A stretch of 64,000 nucleotides of DNA. Origin: Gammaproteobacteria bacterium (GTDB lineage: Bacteria; Pseudomonadota; Gammaproteobacteria; Steroidobacterales; Foliamicaceae). Below are positions 3-62,010 of the stretch, one piece after another. Below the pieces are notes generated by a model. That model saw only the letters and a program-made list of their open reading frames with translations, was not told the DNA's origin and did no database searches. The DNA is taken from the NCBI GenBank assembly GCA_009845905.1, contig VXYS01000004.1, positions 151,285-215,284 of the forward strand, read 5' to 3'. The position numbers and the translations under genes are program-made. Position 1 is the stretch's first letter; each line of letters begins with the position of its first letter.

Positions 3-1292
3 GCCGGCGCGCAGAACCTGCTGGTCGAGAACGTTTCGCTGCTGGACGGTACGGGTGGTCCCGCCGTTGCCGGAATGTGGGTAGCAGTGGAGGACGGGCG
101 CATCAGCGCCGTGGACAATGCGCCGCTCGAAACGCCGGCCGGCGCCGTCGTGCTGAATGGCGACGGCCGCTACCTGATGCCGGGCCTGGTGGACATGCAC
201 ATCCACCTGCGCGGCGGAGTGCGCACCCCGCCCGAAGGGCTTCAGGAACCGCCCTCCCCCAACTTCGAGGAAGGAATTCAGGCGCTGCATGGCTATCTGT
301 ACAGCGGATTCACAATGCTCTACGATGCGGGCAACGACCCCGACTTCATCCTGGCGCTAAGGGAAAAGGAGCGCGCCGGAGAGATCGAAAGCCCGCGCAT
401 TTTCGCCACCGGCGGGATCGTGACCTATCCGGGCAGCCACGGCAGCTCGGCAGGCGCCACGCTGGTGGATGACTGGCCGGAGGCCAAGCCGCTGCTGGAT
501 GCGCACATCGCGCGCGAACCCGACGTGCTCAAGCTCACCTACGAGGAGCGCGGCTGGGGCTCGCGGCCCACCATTCCGCGCCTGCCCGTCGAGCTGATGC
601 AGACCATCGTGGAGTACTACAACGAGCGCGGCATCCGCACCACCGTGCACACCTCAAGCGAACTGCGCGCCCGCCAGGCCATTTTCGCCGGCGTGGACAC
701 GCTGGCGCACCCGATCATCCAGGGTCCGGTTACCGAGCAATTCGCTCGCCTGATGGCCGCCAAGGGCGTTCCCATGGTCACCACGCTCACGATCGGCGAG
801 AACTACGCACGGCTGGTCGAGCAGCCCGAGTACCTGGACCAGCCGATCTACCGGGACACGATCAACCCGGACGAAATCGAGACGCTCAGGACCGAAACCC
901 GCGCGGAATACGAGGCGCGGCCCTGGACCTGGTGGATGAAGGTGATGACCGAAATCGCCAAGGAAAACGTGCGGATGGTCCACGCCGCGGGCGGAGTCCT
1001 GGTGGCCGGATCGGACCAGTCCTCGGGACCGGCGGGACACCGCGAACTGGAACTGCTGCAGGACGCCGGTATCGCGGCTGTCGACATCATCCCCATCGCG
1101 ACGCTCAACGGCGCGGTCTTTCTAGGCATGCAGCACAAGTTCGGATCGATCGAACCGGGCAAGTACGCGGACATGGTACTGCTCGACGCCAATCCCGCCG
1201 AGGACATCAACAACGCCAAGGCCATCGTGGAGGTTATCAAAGGCGGCAGAGTCATCGACCGCTCCGCCCTGAGCCTGCCCGTCAACCGCTAA
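3..1292 (+). CDS. Amidohydrolase family protein, 5'-truncated by window edge
   Basis: Frame is open from position 3 (AGAQNLLVENVSLLDGTGG...). Metal motif DMHIH and C-terminal GSIEPGKYADMVLLDANP are typical of the family. Confidence 0.85.
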   Translation, partial: AGAQNLLVENVSLLDGTGGPAVAGMWVAVEDGRISAVDNAPLETPAGAVVLNGDGRYLMPGLVDMHIHLRGGVRTPPEGLQEPPSPNFEEGIQALHGYLYSGFTMLYDAGNDPDFILALREKERAGEIESPRIFATGGIVTYPGSHGSSAGATLVDDWPEAKPLLDAHIAREPDVLKLTYEERGWGSRPTIPRLPVELMQTIVEYYNERGIRTTVHTSSELRARQAIFAGVDTLAHPIIQGPVTEQFARLMAAKGVPMVTTLTIGENYARLVEQPEYLDQPIYRDTINPDEIETLRTETRAEYEARPWTWWMKVMTEIAKENVRMVHAAGGVLVAGSDQSSGPAGHRELELLQDAGIAAVDIIPIATLNGAVFLGMQHKFGSIEPGKYADMVLLDANPAEDINNAKAIVEVIKGGRVIDRSALSLPVNR

Positions 1293-2938
1293 CCTGGGTG
1301 GGAGGGCGTCCCCTGGGAGCGAGGACGTCCCCCGGGGGCGAGGGCGTCCCGCCCTCGGGGAAGACGGGACGTCTTCCCTCCCGGGTCGGCGGCTCCAGCG
1401 GCGGGCTGTATTCGCTGCCGGTAACGCGCTTCGATGAAGTCGAGGCGCTCCCGGGAGACGCCCCCGCGCACTTCGTCCTCAATGCCGAACACGAGCCAGC
1501 GGTCGTCTTCCTGCCGGTATTCCGGCCATTGCAGGCGGCTCCCCCCGTTCGGATCGCCGTTACGCGCGAAGTCGAGCCAGTAGCCGAACAGGCGTCCCGC
1601 CAGCGCCTGCTGCCCGGCATCGGGCAGGTCCGCCCCGGAAAAGAGCAGCCTGCGGTCGTAGCCGTGCGGCGCGCCCGGCGAGTCGCTCGGGGGCCCGGCG
1701 ACGGGGACATCCAGGTAGTAGATCCATGCCGGGGAGTTCCTGCGCGCCATTCCCATTGCGAGCGTCCGGGCGGCAAGCAGGTAGCGATTGTCCCCGAACA
1801 GGCGCTTTATGCCGATATCCGGAGACTTGTCGAAGTCTTCCCGGTAAAGAGCCCGCGCGGCCGGATAGTCCGCGCCCCAGATGCGTTCGTACGCTTCTTT
1901 CGATATCCCCGAAACCGGCATGATGATGCCTTCGTAGCTGGTTCCGCCGGTCATGACGGGCACATCGTGCTGTTGGCCGGCCAGGAACAGTACGCCGGGT
2001 TCTTCGCGCAGCGTGACACCATCGACCAGCGGCAGGTGAAATCCCTCGACGGCTCTCATCAGCGCCATCGCATCCAGGGCCCGCAACTCGTCGAACGTGT
2101 CCGCGTCGGGAGAAACGCGGTCGATCAGCTCCCGGGCCAGCGACTCCGCGCTCTGCGCGGGATTCAGATCCATGCCCAGCGGGCCGGGCGTGGGAGCGTC
2201 GGCGGTGCGCGGAAGGGCCCAGGTTCCATAACCGCTCTGCGCAATGGCGCCGTGGAACAGCCCCCGCGCCGCGTCGTTCGCCAGCAGCATGCTCACCGCC
2301 ATCCCACCCGCGGACACGCCGAAGACGGTAACCCTGCCCGGATCGCCTCCAAAGGCGGAAATGTTGTCCCGCACCCATTCCAGCGCCATGACCATGTCCA
2401 GCAAGCCGAAGTTGGCTACCGGGCCCTCGAGCGCCGGATGCGCGAAGAAACCGAGCGGTCCCAGCCGGTAGTTGATCGAAACGAAGACAACGCCCCGCGC
2501 TGCGAACAAACCACCCGGCACATCGCTGGTGCCCGCAACGAAGCCGCCGCCGTGAATCCAGACCATGACCGGACGTGCGCCGCCGTCAACGGCGGGCGTC
2601 CAGACATTGAGCGTAAGACAGTCTTCGTCCATTGACCTGACGGGCCGGACCTGGGGACAGGACGGACCGAAATCGAGCGCCTGGCGCACGCCTTCGTGCT
2701 TCGGCTCCGCCTGCGGCGGCAGCCAGCGACGATCTCCGGTCGGCGCGTTGCCGTAGGGAATGCCGCGAAAAACCAGCGCGCCGTTCTCGACGGTCCCTTC
2801 AAACGCGCCTTGCGGCGTTTCAACTACGTTTCCGGCAGACGCCGCACCGGCCGTAAGCACCCAAAGAAGGAATGCGCCAAGCAGAAGCCGAGCGCCCAAG
2901 TCGCAACTACCCTGCCCCGCCTCCTGCGAGCCGGACAC
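1289..2938 (-). CDS. Carboxylesterase type B (secreted); C-terminus runs through a repeat element
   Basis: FRGIPYG, EDCLTLNVW, WIHGGGF, INYRLGPLGF and catalytic G-V-S-A-G motifs; hydrophobic N-terminal signal. Confidence 0.9.
   Translation of the reverse strand: MSGSQEAGQGSCDLGARLLLGAFLLWVLTAGAASAGNVVETPQGAFEGTVENGALVFRGIPYGNAPTGDRRWLPPQAEPKHEGVRQALDFGPSCPQVRPVRSMDEDCLTLNVWTPAVDGGARPVMVWIHGGGFVAGTSDVPGGLFAARGVVFVSINYRLGPLGFFAHPALEGPVANFGLLDMVMALEWVRDNISAFGGDPGRVTVFGVSAGGMAVSMLLANDAARGLFHGAIAQSGYGTWALPRTADAPTPGPLGMDLNPAQSAESLARELIDRVSPDADTFDELRALDAMALMRAVEGFHLPLVDGVTLREEPGVLFLAGQQHDVPVMTGGTSYEGIIMPVSGISKEAYERIWGADYPAARALYREDFDKSPDIGIKRLFGDNRYLLAARTLAMGMARRNSPAWIYYLDVPVAGPPSDSPGAPHGYDRRLLFSGADLPDAGQQALAGRLFGYWLDFARNGDPNGGSRLQWPEYRQEDDRWLVFGIEDEVRGGVSRERLDFIEARYRQRIQPAAGAADPGGKTSRLPRGRDALAPGGRPRSQGTPSHPG
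1293..1385. repeat. Palindromic REP/MITE-like element, family A, composite copy
   Basis: Starts CCTGGGTGGGAGGGCGTCCC directly after TAA. Contains GAGGGCG-TCC-CGCCCTC and GAAGACG-GGA-CGTCTTC hairpins and ends CTCCCGGG. Confidence 0.85.
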
Positions 2939-26150: not shown

Positions 26151-26903
26151 ATGTTGACTTATGTCATTGCGGGAATAATCGTTCTCGTGCTCATAGTCGC
26201 CTCGGTGCGAATCCTCTCGGAGTACGAGCGCGGGGTGATTTTCCTGCTCGGCCGGTTCTGGAAGGTAAAGGGACCGGGACTGATCATCGTGATTCCGCTG
26301 GTCCAGCGGATGGTCCGGGTGGACCTGCGCGTCATCGTGATGGACGTGCCCACCCAGGACGTGATCTCACGCGACAACGTATCGGTGAAAGTCAATGCGG
26401 TGGTGTATTTCCGTATCGTGGATCCCGAGCGGGCCATCATCCAGGTGGCGAACGTTTTCGAGGCCACCAGCCAGCTGGCGCAGACGACCCTGCGCTCCGT
26501 GCTGGGCCAGCATGAACTGGACGAAATGCTGTCCGAGCGCGACAAGCTCAACCAGGATATCCAGGTGATCCTCGATCAGCACACCGACGCCTGGGGCATC
26601 AAGGTCTCCAACGTCGAGATCAAGCATGTGGACCTGGACGAGAGCATGATCCGGGCGATCGCCGCCCAGGCCGAGGCCGAGCGGGCCCGGCGCGCCAAGG
26701 TCATTCACGCCGAAGGCGAAAGTCAGGCTGCCGGACAATTGTCGGAAGCCGCGTCCAAATTAGCCGAACAGGGACAAGCCTTGCAGTTGCGTTACCTGCA
26801 AACGCTTACCGAGGTGGCGAATGAGGGCACTTCCACCATCGTCTTCCCGTTGCCGATAGACCTCATTGAGCCTCTGCTGAAGATGGCCGGCAAAAAATCA
26901 TGA
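26151..26903 (+). CDS. SPFH/stomatin-like protein
   Basis: [28 protein letters not shown] and QLRYLQTL motifs. Confidence 0.95.
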
Positions 26904-28330
26904 GCCGGGAATACGACGTCATCGTGGTCGGCGCCGGTTCCGCCGGCCTGCCGGCGGCCATCTTCGCGGCCCAGGGCGGCGCCCGCGTGCTGCAGATCGA
27001 CGCCGACACGCGCGTCGGCGGGACGCTCTACTGGTCTTCCGGCCAGATCAGCGCCGCGGGCACGCGCCAGCAGGCCGCACTGGGCATCGAGGACAGCCCC
27101 GAGGAACACTACCAGGACGCCCAGCGCATCGCCTACGGCGGGATAGACCCGGTCCTCGGGCGGCTGGCGACAGGCGGCGCCGCGGACACCCTGCACTGGC
27201 TCATGGACATCGGTCTCGAGCTGGCGCCGGAAACGCCCGTCGCAGGGATGGTGCACGAACCCTATACGACGCGCCGGTACGTCTGGGGCCATGAGCAGGC
27301 GATTTCGATTCTCAAGGTGATCGAGCCCGTGCATCGTGAACTGGTGGCGTCGGGGGCGATCGACCTGCGGCTGCAGACCCGCATGACCGGCCTGCTCACT
27401 TCCGCTTCCGGGTCCGTGGTCGGAGTCAAGGCCGAAAGCAACGGCCAGGAAGTCGAATTCCGGGCGCCGAGCGTGGCGCTGACCACCGGCGGTTACGCCG
27501 CCAATCCCGAACTGTGGAACGAGGTCACGCCCTACCCCCTGCATTCCCATTGCAACCCGTTTTCACGCGGTGAAGGCATCATTGCGGCCCGCGAGATCGG
27601 CGCCAAGATCGACCGCACCGACCAGTTCCTGGCCACCTTCGCGGGCTTCCTGCAGGACCCGGGCGATCCCCTGAGCGCCTGGTTCTTCCAGCTTGCGCCG
27701 GCCTACCGGGCGCCATGGGAAATCTACGTGGACGGCCAGGGCAAGCGGTTCCTGCGCGAGGACCACCCGAGCATTCACTACAGCGAAACTTCGCTGTTGA
27801 AGCAGCCCGGCATGCGCATGGTCATCGTGTTCGACGAAGGCATACGCCAGAACGCGACGCCGATGTCCGTATTGGACAAGCAGGGCCGAGACCTGCGTCC
27901 CGAATTCAATACGCACCCGTCGTTCCAGAAGGCCGACTCCATCGAGGAACTGGCCGGCCGGTTCGATATCCCGCCGGACAACCTCGTGGCGACGGTCAAT
28001 CGTTACAACGAAGCCGTCGACAATCACGAGGACCCCGAATTCAATCGCCTGTACATGCCGCGCCGCGTCGACCGCGCGCCGTTTTACGGCATTGAGGCGG
28101 TGGGCGTGACCGTGATCAGTCCCGGCGGCGTCAACGTGAACGGCGACCTGCAGGTCGTGGACGAGTCCGACAAGCCGATCGGCGGCCTCTACGCCGCCGG
28201 CGAAATACTCGGCTTCACGCGCCTGTCGGGCGCGGCCTTCGTCGGCGGCATGTCGCTGATGCCGGCCATGACCTTCGGCCGCATGATCGGCGAGCAGGCC
28301 GCCGCCCAACTGAAAGCCCGCGCCGCCTGA
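26900..28330 (+). CDS. FAD-dependent oxidoreductase (fumarate reductase/ketosteroid dehydrogenase superfamily)
   Basis: [18 protein letters not shown] and GLYAAGE motifs; ATGA overlap with the SPFH gene. Confidence 0.85.
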
Positions 28331-28417
28331 CCTGGAAGCGAGGGCGTCCTGGGTGGGAGGGCGTCCCGCCCTCCTTTAAGGCGGTGACGCCGTGGGGGCC
28401 ATGCCCCCACTCCCAGG
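28331..28417. repeat. Family A palindromic element, composite copy
   Basis: CCTGG...GAGGGCG-TCC-CGCCCTC...GTGGGGGC-CAT-GCCCCCAC...CCCAGG, directly after TGA, between convergent genes. Confidence 0.85.
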
Positions 28418-28418
28418 G

Positions 28419-30716
28419 CTAGTGCCCCAGGAACTGGGTGACCGGATCCTGTGGCTGGGTCTGCTGAATTGCCACCCCCGGGTCAGCCAGGCGCGAAGAT
28501 GCAGTGGCGCCGCAACTGCCGGTTTCCAGATAGCGCAAGGCGGCAGCCAGCCGGGCCTCTTGGGGATCGCCTAGTTGGCGGGTGAGATCGTCCTCGACCT
28601 GGCAGCCTTCGGTGACCGGAAGGCCGTCGTAGTATTCCTCGAAACCCTCCGCGTTGATGGTCGCGAAGGTCACGGCCCAAAGATCCCCCTGTCGCGCATT
28701 GCGATCAGGAGGGCAAAAGTACCGTGCGTATTGACCCACGGGTTTCCCGTAGGTGCGCTCACCCACCAGGGAGACGTTCTCGTACGGCTGAAGCGAGGTA
28801 ATGACGAGTTCGCTAGCGGAAGCGGACCCCCGGCCGGTGATGAACACGACATTTTCGACGTTCCGTATCGCAGATTCGTTCCGACAGCGTGCGGCCATAC
28901 TCCCCGGGTAGACGTCGCATCCGAAATAGGCCGTCTCATCCAGCGAACTGGCAAACAGGTTGTGAACTCTTCTTGACATCACCGTCAGCGTCTGGTTCTC
29001 GAACAGTTCGGGGCCGCCGATCAGGGTGGTCAGGCCATAGGCAATCGGCACGCTGCCTCCGCCGTTGTAGCGCAGGTCAACGATCAGGTTCTTGACGCCG
29101 GCGGCATTGAATTCGGCGAATTCCTGCAACAGGCGTCCGTTCGCGTCCCCGAAGAAGGTCCGAAAATGCAGGTAGCCTACTTTTCCTGCGTCGGTGTCCA
29201 GAATTCGGACGTGTTCCTCGGGAACCGTCGGGACCTCTACCTCCGCCTTGGCCATGCTGAAGGTCCGGCGCTCGCCCGATTGCTTCTCAACTTCGAAGCT
29301 GACTTCGAAGCCTTCCTCGTTGGGGCCGAATTCCTCGAAGACTCCCTCGACAGTCAGGCTGTCGACCGGTTTCCCGTTAAGGCCCACGATCCGGTCGCCT
29401 CGTTCCAGGCCAGCGTTGCCTGCCGGAGCACTCGCATAGACATCGATGACCTGGTAATAGAGCGGTTCCTCGAACACATCCACGATGACCCGTCCGCGAA
29501 ACCCGAAGATGAACGCCCGTCCATCGAACAGCATGTCCGTTTCCGCCGCGCTGCTCCAATAGCTGAAATTGCGGTCATGGGTTTCCGGCCGCCAGCGCAG
29601 GTCGTCCAGCAGGCTGTCGAGGTCGTCGTAATCCTCGATCACGATTTCGCCATAACGCGCCCGCTGCTCGGGCTCGTCGTTCCAGTAGTACCAGTCCTGC
29701 ATCAGATCGAAAACTTCCTGCCGGGCTTCCGGATAGGTGCAGGCAGACGACGCGAACCAGTCCTGGCTCAGCGTAAGCGACTGGGGCGAATTGTTGGCCG
29801 CCAGCGCCGTCACGGTCACGTCCAGTTCGCGGTCTGCGCCGCCGTTCAGCCCGTAACGGACCACGATTTCACCGGCATTCGTGCCTTCCTCGCCGCTCTC
29901 GATGTAGGCCCAGTCGGTACCGTCCGGCAGGCTGGCGCTCCAGCGCATCATCGCGTAGCCGGTGTTGCTCACCTGCAGGGAAATGCTGCCGCCGTAGCCG
30001 TCCAGTTCCGTGCTTGCAGCGGTAAGTTCCAGCATTGCGGGCGCCTCGGCCTGTTGTACGGTAACGGTGCGGGAGCCCGCATCGCCAGCCGAAACGGTCA
30101 GCTCGAATTCGCGCGCGGCGCCCGCGTTGGCGTCGATTTCGATCGCTATGGTTCCGGCGTCGGTGCCGCTGGAGCCGCTGGAGATACGCGCCCAGTCCAC
30201 GCTGCCCGCAATCGAGGCGTTCCAGTCCAGCGTTCCCCCGCCCCGGTTGGTCACGTTCACGGATGCATTGCCGCCCCCGGCTTCGGCGTCGATACGGGCG
30301 GGAGAGACGTTGAGGTTCGGCGCCCCTTCGGCCTGCCGCACGGCAACGGTGCGCGAGCTTGCTCCGGTGGCGGACACGGTCAGTTCGAATTCGCGAGCGG
30401 CGCCCGTGTTGGCGTCAATTGTGATCTGTATGGTTCCGGAATTGGTGCCGCTGGCACCGCTGGAGATACGTGCCCAGTCCACGCCGCCCGCAATGGAGGC
30501 GGTCCAGTTCAGCGTGCCGCCGCCTCCATTGGATACGTCCACCGATGCGTCGCCACCCCTCGCTTCGGCGTCGATGCTGGTGGTGGACAGTTCAATGCTG
30601 GCGGGATCCGGCGGTGGCGGCGACGGCGGCGATCCGTCGGAACCCGAACCTCCGCAGGCCGAAATCAGCACGGCCGCGGCAATGCCAATGAAGCAAGTCC
30701 GTCCCTGGCGGCCCAT
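28419..30716 (-). CDS. S41 peptidase lipoprotein with three BACON-like repeats and a PDZ domain
   Basis: Lipobox ISAC; three ~90 aa repeats (W..IS...G..N...R..TV.Q); DLRYNGGG, SASASE (Ser) and TYGK (Lys) motifs. Confidence 0.85.
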   Translation of the reverse strand: MGRQGRTCFIGIAAAVLISACGGSGSDGSPPSPPPPDPASIELSTTSIDAEARGGDASVDVSNGGGGTLNWTASIAGGVDWARISSGASGTNSGTIQITIDANTGAAREFELTVSATGASSRTVAVRQAEGAPNLNVSPARIDAEAGGGNASVNVTNRGGGTLDWNASIAGSVDWARISSGSSGTDAGTIAIEIDANAGAAREFELTVSAGDAGSRTVTVQQAEAPAMLELTAASTELDGYGGSISLQVSNTGYAMMRWSASLPDGTDWAYIESGEEGTNAGEIVVRYGLNGGADRELDVTVTALAANNSPQSLTLSQDWFASSACTYPEARQEVFDLMQDWYYWNDEPEQRARYGEIVIEDYDDLDSLLDDLRWRPETHDRNFSYWSSAAETDMLFDGRAFIFGFRGRVIVDVFEEPLYYQVIDVYASAPAGNAGLERGDRIVGLNGKPVDSLTVEGVFEEFGPNEEGFEVSFEVEKQSGERRTFSMAKAEVEVPTVPEEHVRILDTDAGKVGYLHFRTFFGDANGRLLQEFAEFNAAGVKNLIVDLRYNGGGSVPIAYGLTTLIGGPELFENQTLTVMSRRVHNLFASSLDETAYFGCDVYPGSMAARCRNESAIRNVENVVFITGRGSASASELVITSLQPYENVSLVGERTYGKPVGQYARYFCPPDRNARQGDLWAVTFATINAEGFEEYYDGLPVTEGCQVEDDLTRQLGDPQEARLAAALRYLETGSCGATASSRLADPGVAIQQTQPQDPVTQFLGH

Positions 30717-41208: not shown

Positions 41209-42549
41209 TCAGTTTTCATAGGGTCCCCAGGCGGGTTCGCGAAGGATTCCCTCGGGCGCGCGCAGCAGGCGCACTACGCCGCTGTCGATGAAATAGACGC
41301 CCAGCCCCCGGCCGGCGGTCGTGCCCGCGCCGAAGATCAGCGCGCGGCCGTTGGGAGCAAAACTCGGCGACTCGTCCAGCGGGCCGTCGGTAAGCAGGCG
41401 CAGCGACTCGTCACGCAGGTCCATGAGGCCGATCCTGAAGCGCCCGTCCTGCTGGTGCACGACCGCCATCTGGTTCCGGTCCGGCTGCAGCCGCGGCCGC
41501 GCATTGTACGAGCCGGTAAAACTGACCCGTTGCGCCTGGCCGCCCCGCGCCGGCGCGACGTACACCTGCGGGCCGATCCCGCGGTCGGACGTGAAGTACA
41601 CGCGATCGCCGTCAGGGGAAAATTCGGGCTCGGTCTCGGTGGCGGAATGGCGCGTCAGGCGCCGCGGCGAGCCCCCGTCTATCGGGTAGATATAGATGTC
41701 GCTGTTTGCGTTCACGTTCCGGGCCACCGCCAGGAATCTCCCGTCGGGCGACCAGGCGGGAGCGCTGGCGGAGGTCCGGTCCGGCGACAGGGGCCGGCGC
41801 TGGCCGGTCGCGACCTCCTGCACGAAGACCTCGGCGTGGCCGGCTTCGAACGACACGTACGCCAGCCAGGCGCCGTCCGGCGACCAGCTCGGCGACATGA
41901 TGGGATCGGTCGAGCGCAGCACGACGATCGGGTTCTGGCCGTCGGCGTCGGCCACGATCAGCCGGAATTCCTCACGGCCCGGCGTGACCTGAACATAGGC
42001 CAGGCGGGTGGAGAACATTCCGCGCGCGCCGGTCAGCTGCTCGTAGACCAGGTCGGCGATACGGTGGGCCGTGGCGCGGAATGCGTCCCGGGAACTTTGC
42101 AGACGGTAGACGAGGAGCGATTCGCCCGCAAAGACGTCCACCAGCTCGAACTCGACGGTCGGGTTGGCTTCGCTGCCCGACACATGGCCGACGAGCACGG
42201 CCTCGACGTCCATGATGCGCCAGTTGGTCAGGCGCATTTCCGAAAAACGGGTCGGCCGGGTAATCATCGTCTCGCGGCCCATCGGCGCGAACTGTCCGGT
42301 CCGCTCGAGGTCGGCCTCCACGATCTCGGCGAAGTCATACGGCAGCCCCAGCGTCACGCGCCACTCGAAGGGAACGATCGCGATGGGAATGGCGCGCTGC
42401 GTGGAGCGCGTAATGACGATATCGAGCTGCGCGGAGGCCGCGAGCGGCAGGAGCGCGAGGACGGCGAGCCAGAGCGCCTGGGAGGGAGGACGTCTCGTCC
42501 TCCTGGAGGGCGGGGACGCCCTCCCACCCAGGATATAGCGAAGTTTCAT
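41209..42549 (-). CDS. tolB: TolB
   Basis: PIAIVPF, HRIAD.VYE.LTG..G.FSTRLAYV and WD40-like SPSWSPDG repeats. Confidence 0.95.
   Translation of the reverse strand: MKLRYILGGRASPPSRRTRRPPSQALWLAVLALLPLAASAQLDIVITRSTQRAIPIAIVPFEWRVTLGLPYDFAEIVEADLERTGQFAPMGRETMITRPTRFSEMRLTNWRIMDVEAVLVGHVSGSEANPTVEFELVDVFAGESLLVYRLQSSRDAFRATAHRIADLVYEQLTGARGMFSTRLAYVQVTPGREEFRLIVADADGQNPIVVLRSTDPIMSPSWSPDGAWLAYVSFEAGHAEVFVQEVATGQRRPLSPDRTSASAPAWSPDGRFLAVARNVNANSDIYIYPIDGGSPRRLTRHSATETEPEFSPDGDRVYFTSDRGIGPQVYVAPARGGQAQRVSFTGSYNARPRLQPDRNQMAVVHQQDGRFRIGLMDLRDESLRLLTDGPLDESPSFAPNGRALIFGAGTTAGRGLGVYFIDSGVVRLLRAPEGILREPAWGPYEN
42477..42532. repeat. Family A element inside the tolB 5' coding region
   Basis: Terminal inverted repeat CCTGGGAGGGAG/CTCCCACCCAGG with two internal hairpins; read in frame. 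Confidence 0.85.
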
Positions 42550-43568
42550 TCGCCCTGCTCCGTCGGTGGGTAGCGCAGGCGCATTTGTCGCTCGAACAAC
42601 TCCGGTATCGGCGGCTCGGGCAGCGGCGACGATCGGCGAATTGCGGTTTCAATGTATCGGCGATCGGTCTCCGTACCGTTGAATGCCTCAAATCGAATTC
42701 CGTCAACTTCATTGCCGGGCAAGATGTCCAGCAATACAACCCACATCAGGCCCTCCGGGATTCCACCCGGTGGACTCCAGTTGCTTTCGATCCGTTGCCG
42801 GATGCGCGCCTTGTATTCGTCGAGTTGACCGGACTCGATGGCCTCATTTCGCCGTTCCTCCGCCATTTCCCGGCGCATACGCTCAGCCAGCTCGGCCTCC
42901 CGCCTTCTGCGCTCGGTCTCCTCGATCTGGCGCTGCGCCGCCTCGGCCTCCTCGGCCAGCTTGCGGGTCTCCTCCTCGGCGCGCTGCCTCTCCGCTTCAG
43001 CTGCCTGGCGTTCGGCTTCGGCCGTCCGGGCCCGCTCCTCCTCTTCCTGACGCTCGCGTTCGATCCGCTCCAGCCGCTCGGTCTCTTCCTGCTGGCGGCG
43101 CTGCATCTCGCTGAGCTGGCGGCTGGCCTGCGTCTGCTGCTCGCTCAGCTCGCGCCGGGCCTGCTCGGTCTGCGTGCTCAAGGCGCTCAACTCCTGTTCC
43201 TGGCGCCTCTGCCGCTGCTCCTGCTCCTCGATCTGCGCGCGCAGGCGCTCGACCTCCCGTTCGCGCTCGATCACCGCCGCGCGCTCCAGTTCGTCGAGAC
43301 GCTGAATTTCCCTTTGAACCGCCTCGTCGTCCAGCACTACGCCGTCGATGGCGATGGTACCAAAGGCCGGCTCGTCCGGTTGAATCCGGGTGGCAAAGCC
43401 GATCAGCAGGAACGCCATCAGCGCGGCGTGACCTAATACCGACCAGGAGCACGGACGCAGCATGGGAAGCGGTGGCGCGTTGGGATTGGCACCCGGTGAG
43501 CGAATACCCGGGCCGGTCCGCAAGGACCGAGCCACACGCTCAATCAGCGCCTTCAGGCGATCCATCAT
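42546..43568 (-). CDS. tolA: TolA
   Basis: Single TM (HAALMAFLL), long E/R/Q/A helical region, C-terminal I...W..P domain. Confidence 0.88.
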   Translation of the reverse strand: MMDRLKALIERVARSLRTGPGIRSPGANPNAPPLPMLRPCSWSVLGHAALMAFLLIGFATRIQPDEPAFGTIAIDGVVLDDEAVQREIQRLDELERAAVIEREREVERLRAQIEEQEQRQRRQEQELSALSTQTEQARRELSEQQTQASRQLSEMQRRQQEETERLERIERERQEEEERARTAEAERQAAEAERQRAEEETRKLAEEAEAAQRQIEETERRRREAELAERMRREMAEERRNEAIESGQLDEYKARIRQRIESNWSPPGGIPEGLMWVVLLDILPGNEVDGIRFEAFNGTETDRRYIETAIRRSSPLPEPPIPELFERQMRLRYPPTEQGE

Positions 43569-61951: not shown

Positions 61952-61980
61952 CCCCTCGGAGCGAGGACGTCCCGTCCTCG
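61952..61980. repeat. Family A element, minimal copy after the thpR stop
   Basis: GGAGC-GAGGACG-TCC-CGTCCTC. Confidence 0.7.
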
Positions 61981-62010
61981 AAATGCCGCCGGCGATTCAG
62001 GATTCTTTTA

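What the first reader, a model, noticed from the sequence alone, without database searches (positions are those of the whole stretch)
42477..42549. Repeat element translated in frame inside the TolB signal peptide
Seen: the tolB ATG is coupled to the tolA stop (ATGA) and there is no ATG/GTG/TTG between the element and the cleavage site. The leader reads MKLRYIL-GGRASPPSRRTRRPPSQ-ALWLAVLALLPLAASA. Removing these 51 nt restores a textbook Sec signal (MKLRYILALWLAVLALLPLAASA) and a single CCTGG. Established analogy: Rickettsia palindromic elements insert in frame into conserved genes. Inference: the insertion is tolerated because the signal is cleaved, and it reveals the target site. The hairpin could also tune TolB translation.
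Basis: partly seen in the sequence, partly recalled or inferred. Interest (0 to 1): 0.7.

Follow-up and report, generated by a model that had tools for sequence, protein, structure and literature searches.

The report
Translated REP repeat inside TolB signal peptide
A 56-base mobile hairpin repeat (a REP doublet, or REPIN) sits in frame inside the export signal of the envelope protein TolB in a sponge-associated bacterium, and the same spot carries gained, lost or expanded copies across the whole related clade, so this is a clear natural example of a known phenomenon, not a new kind of element.

Summary
tolB (41209-42549, minus strand) starts at an ATG that overlaps the tolA stop (ATGA). A 51-nt insert (42477-42527) adds GGRASPPSRRTRRPPSQ between MKLRYIL and the hydrophobic core. 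No other canonical in-frame start exists. The identical junction occurs in five independent assemblies.

The insert is a REPIN: two inverted REP units with CCWGG termini. Related copies lie at three other places in the window. RAYT transposase genes in relatives are flanked by the same REPs.

Close relatives have empty sites (ATCCGGG|CGCTCTG), matching the predicted excision boundaries. However, about two thirds of 46 clade TolB proteins carry REP-coded leaders of 40-87 aa at this spot. Short-leader forms are scattered tips in the tree. The site is therefore an old, unstable REP array, not a fresh insertion that reveals a target. CCTGG is the terminus of every copy.

Predicted accessibility of the start region is unchanged by the element. 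The element begins 13 nt after the tolA stop, within the distance at which E. coli REPs reduce upstream translation.

Intragenic REPs and Rickettsia palindromic elements are already described. This is a new, unusually clear member of that kind. No experiment was done; export and expression effects are inferred.

The parts
42477..42532 (-). REPIN: a REP doublet with CCTGG...CCAGG termini. The 51 nt absent from empty alleles are 42477-42527.
   Evidence: Sequence. Terminal inverted repeats CCTGGGTGGGAGG / CCTCCCTCCCAGG. The leader folds into one long hairpin of -57 kcal/mol; in wider context it folds as two hairpins, z = -2.95.
42505..42532 (-). REP-L unit (CCTGGGTGGGAGGGCGTCCCCGCCCTCC) with hairpin GGAGGGCG-TCCC-CGCCCTCC. 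It encodes L-GGRASPPS.
42477..42503 (-). REP-R unit, an inverted copy (reverse complement CCTGGGAGGGAGGACGTCTCGTCCTCC) with hairpin GGAGGACG-AGA-CGTCCTCC. It encodes RRTRRPPSQ.
42546..42549 (-). ATGA overlap of the tolB start codon and the tolA stop codon. The element begins 13 nt after the stop.
   Evidence: The overlap is present in 9 of the 10 loci and in most further junctions.
42558..42561 (-). GGAG Shine-Dalgarno motif 8 nt upstream of the tolB ATG
   Evidence: The motif is present at this spacing in all but one of the nine junctions printed; L091 is the exception.
42429..42476 (-). Hydrophobic core and cleavage region of the signal peptide (ALWLAVLALLPLAASA). Mature TolB starts at QLDIV.
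   Evidence: Mean Kyte-Doolittle hydropathy of the core is 2.49, against -2.03 for the insert.
41209..42549 (-). tolB, 446 codons including the insert
   Evidence: TolB_N and PD40/beta-propeller Pfam families are listed.
42546..43568 (-). tolA (TonB_2 family C-terminus)
1293..1390 (+). REP array of the same family. It starts one base after the stop of the amidohydrolase gene (75-1292). It is read as the last ~33 codons of the minus-strand carboxylesterase ORF (1289-2938).
28331..28418 (+). REP array of the same family that fills the whole spacer between two convergent genes (26900-28330 plus strand, 28419-30716 minus strand)
61955..61981 (+). Single REP (GGAGCGAGGACGTCCCGTCCTCG) in the spacer between two minus-strand genes
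   Evidence: It matches RAYT-flanking REPs of L221/L225 except for one compensatory pair.

Best explanation
The element is a REPIN: two inverted REP units of a family that RAYT-type tyrosine transposases mobilise. It lies 17 nt inside tolB, because tolB overlaps the tolA stop and there is no spacer between the two genes.

Shown from sequence: ribosomes that start at the ATGA must read through it, which adds 17 residues (net charge +5) between MKLRYIL and the hydrophobic core.

Inferred: the residues become part of a long, basic n-region of a Sec signal peptide that signal peptidase removes at ASA|Q, so mature TolB is unchanged. The copy persists because this is one of the few coding positions where a GC-rich palindrome can be tolerated. 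It must be a multiple of three in length and read in a basic frame.

Shown by comparison: the site is old and unstable across the clade. Arrays expand by tandem duplication or new units.

Inferred: arrays are lost by RAYT excision, or by slippage between the CCNGG termini that bracket the hairpin. On this reading the copy is mainly a tolerated passenger. Any effect on tol-pal expression would be secondary.
For: Identity as a REP/REPIN:
- The family is dispersed, with 5 hairpins against 0.01 expected by chance.
- It has an inverted-doublet architecture that folds into one long hairpin.
- 42 of 50 family hairpins are perfectly paired, across at least 9 stem variants.
- RAYT genes are flanked by these REPs. 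They match NCBIfam NF047646 at 92.1 bits against a cutoff of 80 and Pfam Y1_Tnp above its cutoff. One RAYT lies on the same chromosome as a REP-bearing tolB and shares the 28-mer CTGGGAACGAGGGCGTCTCGCCCTCGAC with that leader. RAYT cluster members also sit on contigs of the same lengths as the chromosomes of L004 and L005 (3,573,228 and 3,529,867 bp).

Translation:
- There is a single in-frame start.
- The ATGA overlap is conserved (9 of 10 loci, most junctions), and the GGAG motif is present in all but one junction.
- The frame stays open from the start codon to the mature protein in all 10 genome loci, although leader lengths range from 54 to 255 nt.

Tolerance:
- The frame in use gives +5 charge. 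The alternative frames give +3 and -4.
- The 12-residue hydrophobic core and the ASA site are intact.

Dispensability and turnover:
- Empty alleles occur in the closest relatives (L001, L002, P0124/P0127, P0133).
- There is a partial remnant (P0003), a tandem expansion (P0008) and multi-unit arrays (L005/L006).
- Empty forms are nested among filled ones in the tree.
- Outgroup TolB proteins (51% identity or less) have ordinary 21-25-aa leaders.

Reality: the junction is identical in five assemblies.
Against: - No experimental or proteomic evidence exists that the long leader is exported and cleaved. No signal-peptide predictor was available.
- No RAYT gene was found in the window, and none was proven to be in this genome. 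The best candidate is only on a 1.3-kb scaffold from the same metagenome sample.
- Occupation of this one site across the whole clade is more than a purely neutral passenger model predicts, unless the site is an insertion hot spot. By contrast, the tolB-pal spacer REPINs are seen only in L004-L006.
- The direction of change (gain or loss) at each node was inferred from a neighbour-joining tree of one protein and one six-gene locus.
Confidence: 0.72

Rival explanations
1. Selected RNA-level regulator of the tol-pal operon. The REPIN hairpin starts 13 nt after the tolA stop. On this reading it stalls terminating ribosomes, lowering TolA output and altering tolA-to-tolB coupling, and/or it stabilises the upstream tolQRA message. 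The coding read-through would be a by-product of the gene overlap.
For: - In E. coli, REPs lower translation of the upstream gene only when they lie fewer than 16 nt from its stop codon (prior study as cited in PMC12306157). Here the distance is 13 nt.
- Across the clade the array starts 17-21 nt after the A of the ATG, counted from the leader sequences.
- Other copies in the window directly abut stop codons.
- L004-L006 also carry REPINs at the tolB-pal junction.
- The site stays occupied in most subclades.
- Hairpins remain perfect despite sequence change.
Against: - About one third of clade members, including sister lineages of filled ones, lack the element. It is therefore dispensable.
- Perfect hairpins are a family-wide REP property and do not show selection at this site.
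- Predicted SD/AUG accessibility is unchanged by the element.
- No terminator-like or promoter-like site was found.
- No expression data exist.
Confidence: 0.18
2. Functional extended signal peptide. The long basic n-region would itself be selected, for example to slow or re-route TolB export, as proposed for the extended signal peptide regions of autotransporters.
For: - REP-coded leaders of 40-87 aa are widespread in the clade and always basic.
- The same reading phase ([GT]RASPPS...) recurs in distant members.
- Long functional signal sequences are known in autotransporters and two-partner secretion proteins (PMC2805444, listed).
Against: - The peptides vary greatly in length and sequence and have no conserved motif beyond what the REP DNA dictates.
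- Empty alleles occur in close relatives.
- The shared phase is expected from common ancestry plus duplications in multiples of 3 nt.
Confidence: 0.06
3. The element is not translated. On this reading tolB would initiate downstream of it at a non-canonical codon, so the REPIN would be an ordinary intergenic REP.
For: For other species, Di Nocera et al. caution that many REPs annotated at ORF N-termini may be extragenic, because translation may start downstream (PMC3733652).
Against: - There is no ATG/GTG/TTG in frame between the element and the mature protein.
- The only CTG would leave M-PLAASA, which has no hydrophobic core.
- The frame is open and in phase with the ATGA in all 10 loci, despite at least five different insert lengths.
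- The SD motif sits 8 nt before the ATGA.
Confidence: 0.03
4. Assembly or binning artefact at a repeat.
For: REPs are repeats, and short-read assemblers can mis-join at them.
Against: The 240-nt junction is identical in five assemblies made by different pipelines, including a 3.0-Mb contig and raw-run Logan contigs. Related filled alleles occur in chromosome-level assemblies.
Confidence: 0.01

Closest known systems
REPIN-RAYT systems (REP doublets mobilised by REP-associated tyrosine transposases; Bertels & Rainey 2011, PMC3116915; PMC3337134)
   Same: - Two short palindromic REPs in inverted orientation that fold into one long hairpin.
- Dispersed copies, mostly next to the 3' ends of genes.
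- RAYT genes flanked by the same REPs in clade genomes.
- Persistence within a lineage.
   Different: - This copy lies inside a coding sequence and is translated.
- The family lacks the GTAG tag of the classical E. coli and Pseudomonas REPs.
- A RAYT gene was not shown in this genome itself.
Rickettsia palindromic elements (RPE; Ogata et al. 2000; name and date from my own knowledge; RPEs are discussed as intragenic repeats in PMC3733652)
   Same: - A palindromic mobile repeat inserted in frame into a conserved gene.
- Translated, and tolerated because it lands in a permissive part of the protein.
   Different: - RPEs are longer (about 100-150 nt, from my own knowledge) and restricted to Rickettsia; this element was not compared with RPE sequences here.
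- RPE segments are described as part of the expressed protein (PMC3733652). Here the segment lies in the leader, which is presumably cleaved off.
Intragenic GTAG/CGTC REPs (Di Nocera, De Gregorio & Rocco 2013, PMC3733652)
   Same: - REP singles and dimers encoding 7-30 residues inside ORFs.
- Their supplement lists dimers at residues 10-31 and 5-32 of periplasmic binding proteins (PFL_1387, PSEEN3152).
   Different: - Those N-terminal cases were flagged as possibly untranslated. Here translation is forced by the lack of any other start.
- No TolB case is listed there.
- The clade-wide turnover at a single site is not described there.
- CGTC lies at the stem-loop border here, not at the end of the element.
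REPs within 15 nt of a stop codon that lower upstream translation in E. coli (prior study as cited in PMC12306157; from my own knowledge, Liang, Rudd & Deutscher 2015)
   Same: A REP hairpin starting 13 nt after the tolA stop codon.
   Different: - Here the downstream sequence is itself coding and translationally coupled.
- No functional test exists.
Extended signal peptide regions of autotransporters and two-partner secretion proteins (PMC2805444)
   Same: An N-terminal extension placed before an otherwise normal n-h-c Sec signal.
   Different: According to the literature (not compared here), extended signal peptide regions are a conserved protein motif. Here the extension is repeat DNA of variable length with no conserved peptide.

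Membership tests
REP / REPIN | Short (20-40 nt) imperfect palindrome that forms a stem-loop | tested here: met
   There are two ~27-nt units, each with a perfect 8-bp GC stem and a 3-4-nt loop.
REP / REPIN | Many similar copies dispersed in the genome, mostly extragenic and near the 3' ends of genes | tested here: met
   The 64-kb window has four sites, with 5 hairpins against 0.01 expected. Two arrays start within one base of a stop codon. Further copies occur in relatives' spacers. A whole-genome count was not possible.
REP / REPIN | Two REPs in inverted orientation able to form one long hairpin (the REPIN) | tested here: met
   The reverse complement of REP-R aligns with REP-L. The minimum-free-energy fold of the leader is a single long hairpin at -57.1 kcal/mol, and -63.0 in L093, where the termini carry a compensating change.
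REP / REPIN | A cognate RAYT gene flanked by the same REPs | tested here: inconclusive
   Met in clade relatives:
- L215, on the same chromosome as tolB locus L090, shares a 28-mer with that tolB leader.
- RAYT cluster members sit on contigs whose lengths match the chromosomes of L004 and L005.
- L184 scores 92.1 bits on NF047646 against a cutoff of 80.

Not shown for this genome:
- No RAYT is present in the window.
- A RAYT flanked by GGAGCGAGGGCGTCCCGCCCTCGA is on a 1.3-kb scaffold of the same sample.
GTAG-tagged REP superfamily | Terminal GTAG tetranucleotide at one end of the palindrome | tested here: not met
   No GTAG is present at either end of any copy read.
CGTC-tagged REP superfamily (includes RPE-4 and RPE-6) | CGTC at the end of the element, stems of 8-9 bp starting with A/T pairs, loops of 4-5 nt, and a CCA-like tail (as described in PMC3733652) | tested here: not met
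   CGTC is conserved (GAGGRCGTCC six times), but it lies at the stem-loop border. The stems are all G/C at their base and the loops are 3-4 nt. The paper's figures were not available for a full comparison.
Sec-type cleavable signal peptide | Basic n-region, hydrophobic core of 7-15 residues, and an AxA site before the mature protein | tested here: met
   The n-region is 24 residues with charge +7. The core ALWLAVLALLPL has mean hydropathy 2.49. ASA|QLDIV aligns with the mature N-terminus of all relatives. This was judged by inspection only, because no predictor was available.
Tat signal peptide | S/T-R-R-x-F-L-K motif before the hydrophobic core | tested here: not met
   SRRTRRPP has no F-L-K-like continuation. 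The RR pairs are dictated by the REP DNA and are absent from empty alleles.
Rfam sbcD RNA (RF01757) | Score at or above the gathering threshold of 40 bits | tested here: not met
   The score is 20.5 bits with E = 0.47 at 42434-42561, minus strand.

The most novel reading that the evidence does not exclude
The REP array at the tolA/tolB junction may be more than a passenger. It could be a clade-wide selected dual-use module. As an RNA hairpin it would set TolA termination, tolA-tolB coupling and tol-pal stoichiometry. As a peptide it would provide an adjustable extended n-region. RAYT activity would keep it in place and re-tune it over the whole history of this sponge-symbiont family.
Probability: 0.12. 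Interest if true: 0.7.

Novelty: new member of a known kind. Interest (0 to 1): 0.42.

Why it matters
- The case shows, with forced translation and natural filled and empty alleles, that a mobile REP doublet can live inside an essential-pathway gene by occupying the disposable n-region of a signal peptide.
- The clade supplies a ready-made natural series of TolB leaders from 19 to 87 residues. That series can be used to test how much extra basic sequence a Sec signal tolerates.
- The same series can test whether REP hairpins placed just after a stop codon regulate overlapping, translationally coupled genes.
- There is a practical warning for annotation. N-terminal REP-coded extensions of exported proteins need not be start-codon errors.

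Tried and rejected
- Alternative start codons: none lies in frame.
- Internal AGGAGG of the element acting as a Shine-Dalgarno site: no start codon follows it at a usable spacing and in frame.
- Tat motif: absent.
- Known RNA families: only a sub-threshold sbcD RNA hit.
- Promoter or intrinsic terminator at the junction: none found.
- Hairpin occluding the SD/AUG: accessibility is unchanged by the element.
- RAYT in the window: phmmer with E. coli RayT against all six-frame ORFs of the window found nothing. Pfam on ten ORFs, six of them flanking the other three REP sites, found no Y1_Tnp domain.
- RAYT in this exact genome: two homologue searches, a cluster listing and two contig look-ups found RAYTs in clade relatives and in the same sample, but none on a contig of this genome.
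- Literature: no paper on Candidatus Foliamicus and none on REP in signal peptides.
- My first hairpin tally used too strict a pattern and was redone.
Full report
**What is there**

On the minus strand the window carries ruvCAB-tolQ-tolR-tolA-tolB-pal-cpoB. tolA (42546-43568) ends GGC GAA TGA. tolB (41209-42549) starts at the ATG of the same ATGA, and a GGAG motif lies 8 nt upstream.

The tolB leader reads MKLRYIL-GGRASPPSRRTRRPPSQ-ALWLAVLALLPLAASA, followed by QLDIV. The only in-frame ATG/GTG/TTG between the upstream stop and the mature N-terminus is that ATG.

The DNA is ATATCCTGG|GTGGGAGGGCGTCCCCGCCCTCCAGGAGGACGAGACGTCCTCCCTCCCAGG|CGCTCTGG. The 51 nt between the bars are 42477-42527.

**Is it more than chance, and is it real?**

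- The two 8-bp GC hairpins are perfect.
- The pattern GAGGRCG-N2-6-CGYCCTC occurs 5 times in the window against 0.01 expected.
- The 19-mer CCTGGGTGGGAGGGCGTCC recurs at 1293 and 28348.
- The exact 446-aa protein is on at least 10 contigs. The 240-nt junction is base-identical in five assemblies from different pipelines, including a 3.0-Mb contig and two raw-run Logan assemblies. An assembly artefact is excluded for practical purposes.

**What kind of element is it?**

The 56-nt unit (42477-42532) consists of two ~27-nt REP units in inverted orientation. REP-L is CCTGGGTGGGAGGGCGTCCCCGCCCTCC. The reverse complement of REP-R is CCTGGGAGGGAGGACGTCTCGTCCTCC. Alone, the leader folds into one long hairpin (-57 kcal/mol). 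In wider context it folds as two hairpins (z = -2.95). This is the REPIN architecture described in PMC3116915 and PMC3337134.

Other copies in the window:
- 1293-1390 is an array that starts one base after the stop of an amidohydrolase gene.
- 28331-28418 fills a whole convergent spacer.
- 61955-61981 is a single unit.

Over 172 kb of clade sequence, 42 of 50 family hairpins are perfectly paired, in at least nine stem variants such as GAGGGCG/CGCCCTC, GAGGACG/CGTCCTC and GAGGGCA/TGCCCTC. That is the usual REP pattern.

**Link to a transposase**

- A scan of metagenome contigs with the REP pattern returned 120 loci.
- phmmer with E. coli RayT found three hits among their ORFs and none in the window.
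- The three hits pass the Pfam Y1_Tnp cutoff. The L184 protein scores 92.1 bits on NCBIfam NF047646, REP-associated tyrosine transposase, against a cutoff of 80.
- In L184 the gene has a REP at its 5' side and a REPIN at its 3' side.
- A homologue, P0138, lies on ERZ26166901 contig_1. That is the same chromosome as the REP-bearing tolB of P0020. It is flanked by CTGGGAACGAGGGCGTCTCGCCCTCGAC, the very unit present in that tolB leader.
- RAYT cluster members also sit on contigs whose lengths match the chromosomes of L004 and L005.
- A RAYT flanked by GGAGCGAGGGCGTCCCGCCCTCGA occurs in the same sample as this genome, but on a 1.3-kb scaffold. That flank equals the window copy at 61955 apart from one compensatory pair. 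Its link to this genome is unproven.
- The family has no terminal GTAG. Its conserved CGTC lies at the stem-loop border, so it does not fit either tagged superfamily of PMC3733652 as described in the text.

**Relatives**

The nine closest genome loci are uncultured Gammaproteobacteria assemblies, including three labelled Candidatus Foliamicus sp.. I take these to be sponge-associated, from isolate and sample names only.

A bootstrapped neighbour-joining tree of tolQRAB-pal-cpoB gives ((window,(L001,L002)),L003), then L004-L006, then L007-L009. L001+L002 has 98-99% support.

- L001 and L002 have 19- and 18-codon leaders (57 and 54 nt before the last signal-peptide codon; MKLRGIFFAILAVLPLTASA, MIRALCLAALALLPLTASA).
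- L003 to L009 have leaders of 135-255 nt. Those of L003-L006 are visibly REP arrays; no REP hairpin was found in those of L007-L009.
- The frame from the start codon to the mature protein is open in all ten loci.

A protein search and the 90% cluster listing added 46 clade TolB sequences.
- About two thirds have 40-87-aa leaders rich in R, S and P, with recurring [GT]RASPPS...RTRRP motifs.
- About one third have 19-26-aa leaders.
- On a tree of the mature protein, short-leader forms are scattered tips nested among long-leader forms: P0124/P0127 next to P0128, P0010 within P0001/P0002/P0130/P0131, P0019 next to P0020, P0027 next to P0029, P0031 next to P0033.
- P0003 keeps only the RPRSRA tail.
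- P0008 has four tandem REP-L copies.
- Outgroup TolB proteins have ordinary leaders.

DNA for eight of these confirms the REP nature of most inserts; that of L092 is degenerate.

The empty allele L086 reads ATG ATC CGG|GCG CTC TGG. That is the window sequence without the 51 nt, with one substitution and a further 12-nt deletion upstream.

**Consequences for the interpretation**

The insertion reading is right in kind. However, the site is an old, unstable REP array shared by a clade that goes down to 71% TolB identity. It is not evidently a fresh event in this genome. With L001+L002 as sisters and L003-L006 filled, parsimony on the locus tree favours presence followed by loss. The many scattered empty tips require repeated events in either direction.

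CCTGG/CCCGG is the terminus of every copy read, intergenic and RAYT-flanking ones included. It cannot be called a target-site duplication. Because the termini are near-palindromic, they also form short direct repeats around a strong hairpin. From general knowledge of palindrome instability, that geometry favours precise deletion by slippage. This step is inferred.

**How it most likely works**

*Shown.* The element is translated if TolB is made at all. It adds 17 residues with net charge +5. The other two frames would give +3 and -4. The hydrophobic core and the ASA site are intact.

*Inferred.* The residues extend the n-region of a Sec signal, which gives 24 residues with charge +7, and are removed on cleavage. 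Mature TolB is then unaffected, and only in-frame, non-acidic versions survive.

The first 17-21 nt of tolB are always retained before the array (counted from the leader sequences). That fits a need to keep the initiation region free, or a single ancestral site. Predicted accessibility of the SD/AUG region is the same with and without the element (0.44 against 0.45). The suggested tuning of TolB initiation is therefore not supported.

The element starts 13 nt after the tolA stop. That is inside the under-16-nt distance at which E. coli REPs reduce translation of the upstream gene (prior study as cited in PMC12306157). An effect on TolA output or on coupling is a live but untested rival. The frequency of empty alleles shows the element is dispensable.

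**Comparison with what is known**

- In-frame palindromic repeats are known from Rickettsia (RPE).
- Intragenic REPs have been catalogued in several species. Dimers at residues 5-32 of periplasmic binding proteins are listed, but the authors warn that such N-terminal cases may be untranslated (PMC3733652).
- No TolB case is listed there. Two literature searches found no paper on REPs in signal peptides and none on Candidatus Foliamicus.

I file this as a new member of a known kind. Its distinguishing points are forced translation, location in a cleavable leader, natural filled and empty alleles, and long-lived turnover at one site.

**Limits**

- There is no experiment, no signal-peptide predictor and no read-level data.
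- The trees are neighbour-joining on one locus.
- No RAYT was shown in this genome.

Noticed in passing
window 1289-1390 (carboxylesterase ORF 1289-2938, minus strand): The last ~33 codons of the carboxylesterase ORF (...DPGGKTSRLPRGRDALAPGGRPRSQGTPSHPG*) are read through the REP array at 1293-1390. The Pfam COesterase match ends at residue 501 of 549. This is a second case in the window of REP DNA inside an ORF, here as a C-terminal tail.
   Followed up: partly
window 28331-28418: The whole 88-nt spacer between two convergent genes (FAD-binding protein, S41 peptidase) is REP array. It starts on the base after one stop codon and ends at the other.
   Followed up: partly
L184:7000-7826 (minus strand), L133:4700-5700, L123:1-620: In three metagenome contigs a RAYT gene with its flanking REPs sits in frame inside a larger ORF that JGI names 'putative DNA methylase'. 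No stop codon separates host, REP, RAYT, REPIN and host sequence in L184. The L133 copy has an in-frame TGA where the others have a Trp codon. It may be an inserted REPtron read through as a fusion. The meaning is unknown.
   Followed up: partly
L004:4380-4480, L005:4330-4500, L006:4320-4420: The Candidatus Foliamicus loci also carry one or two canonical REPINs in the tolB-pal spacer. In those genomes both junctions of tolB are therefore occupied.
   Followed up: partly
L087:1001-1183 (TolB P0008): The leader has several REP-L copies in tandem before the REP-R unit. This gives the peptide repeat GGRASP[LP] and a predicted fold of -116 kcal/mol.
   Followed up: partly
window 42434-42561 (minus strand): There is a sub-threshold Rfam hit to sbcD RNA (RF01757; 20.5 bits against a gathering score of 40; E = 0.47) exactly over the element. 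It is probably a chance match or a generic GC-hairpin resemblance.
   Followed up: no
P0001, P0002, P0010, P0122, P0130-P0132; L088, L089: Some clade TolB proteins have a ~10-residue C-terminal extension (TQPNLQGSTP). In those loci tolB overlaps the pal start instead of leaving a spacer.
   Followed up: no
L215:2501-2560 (RAYT P0138): The annotated N-terminus of this RAYT (…PWERGRPALEK…) is itself REP-coded, in a different reading phase from the tolB copies. Either the true start is downstream or this is another translated REP.
   Followed up: no
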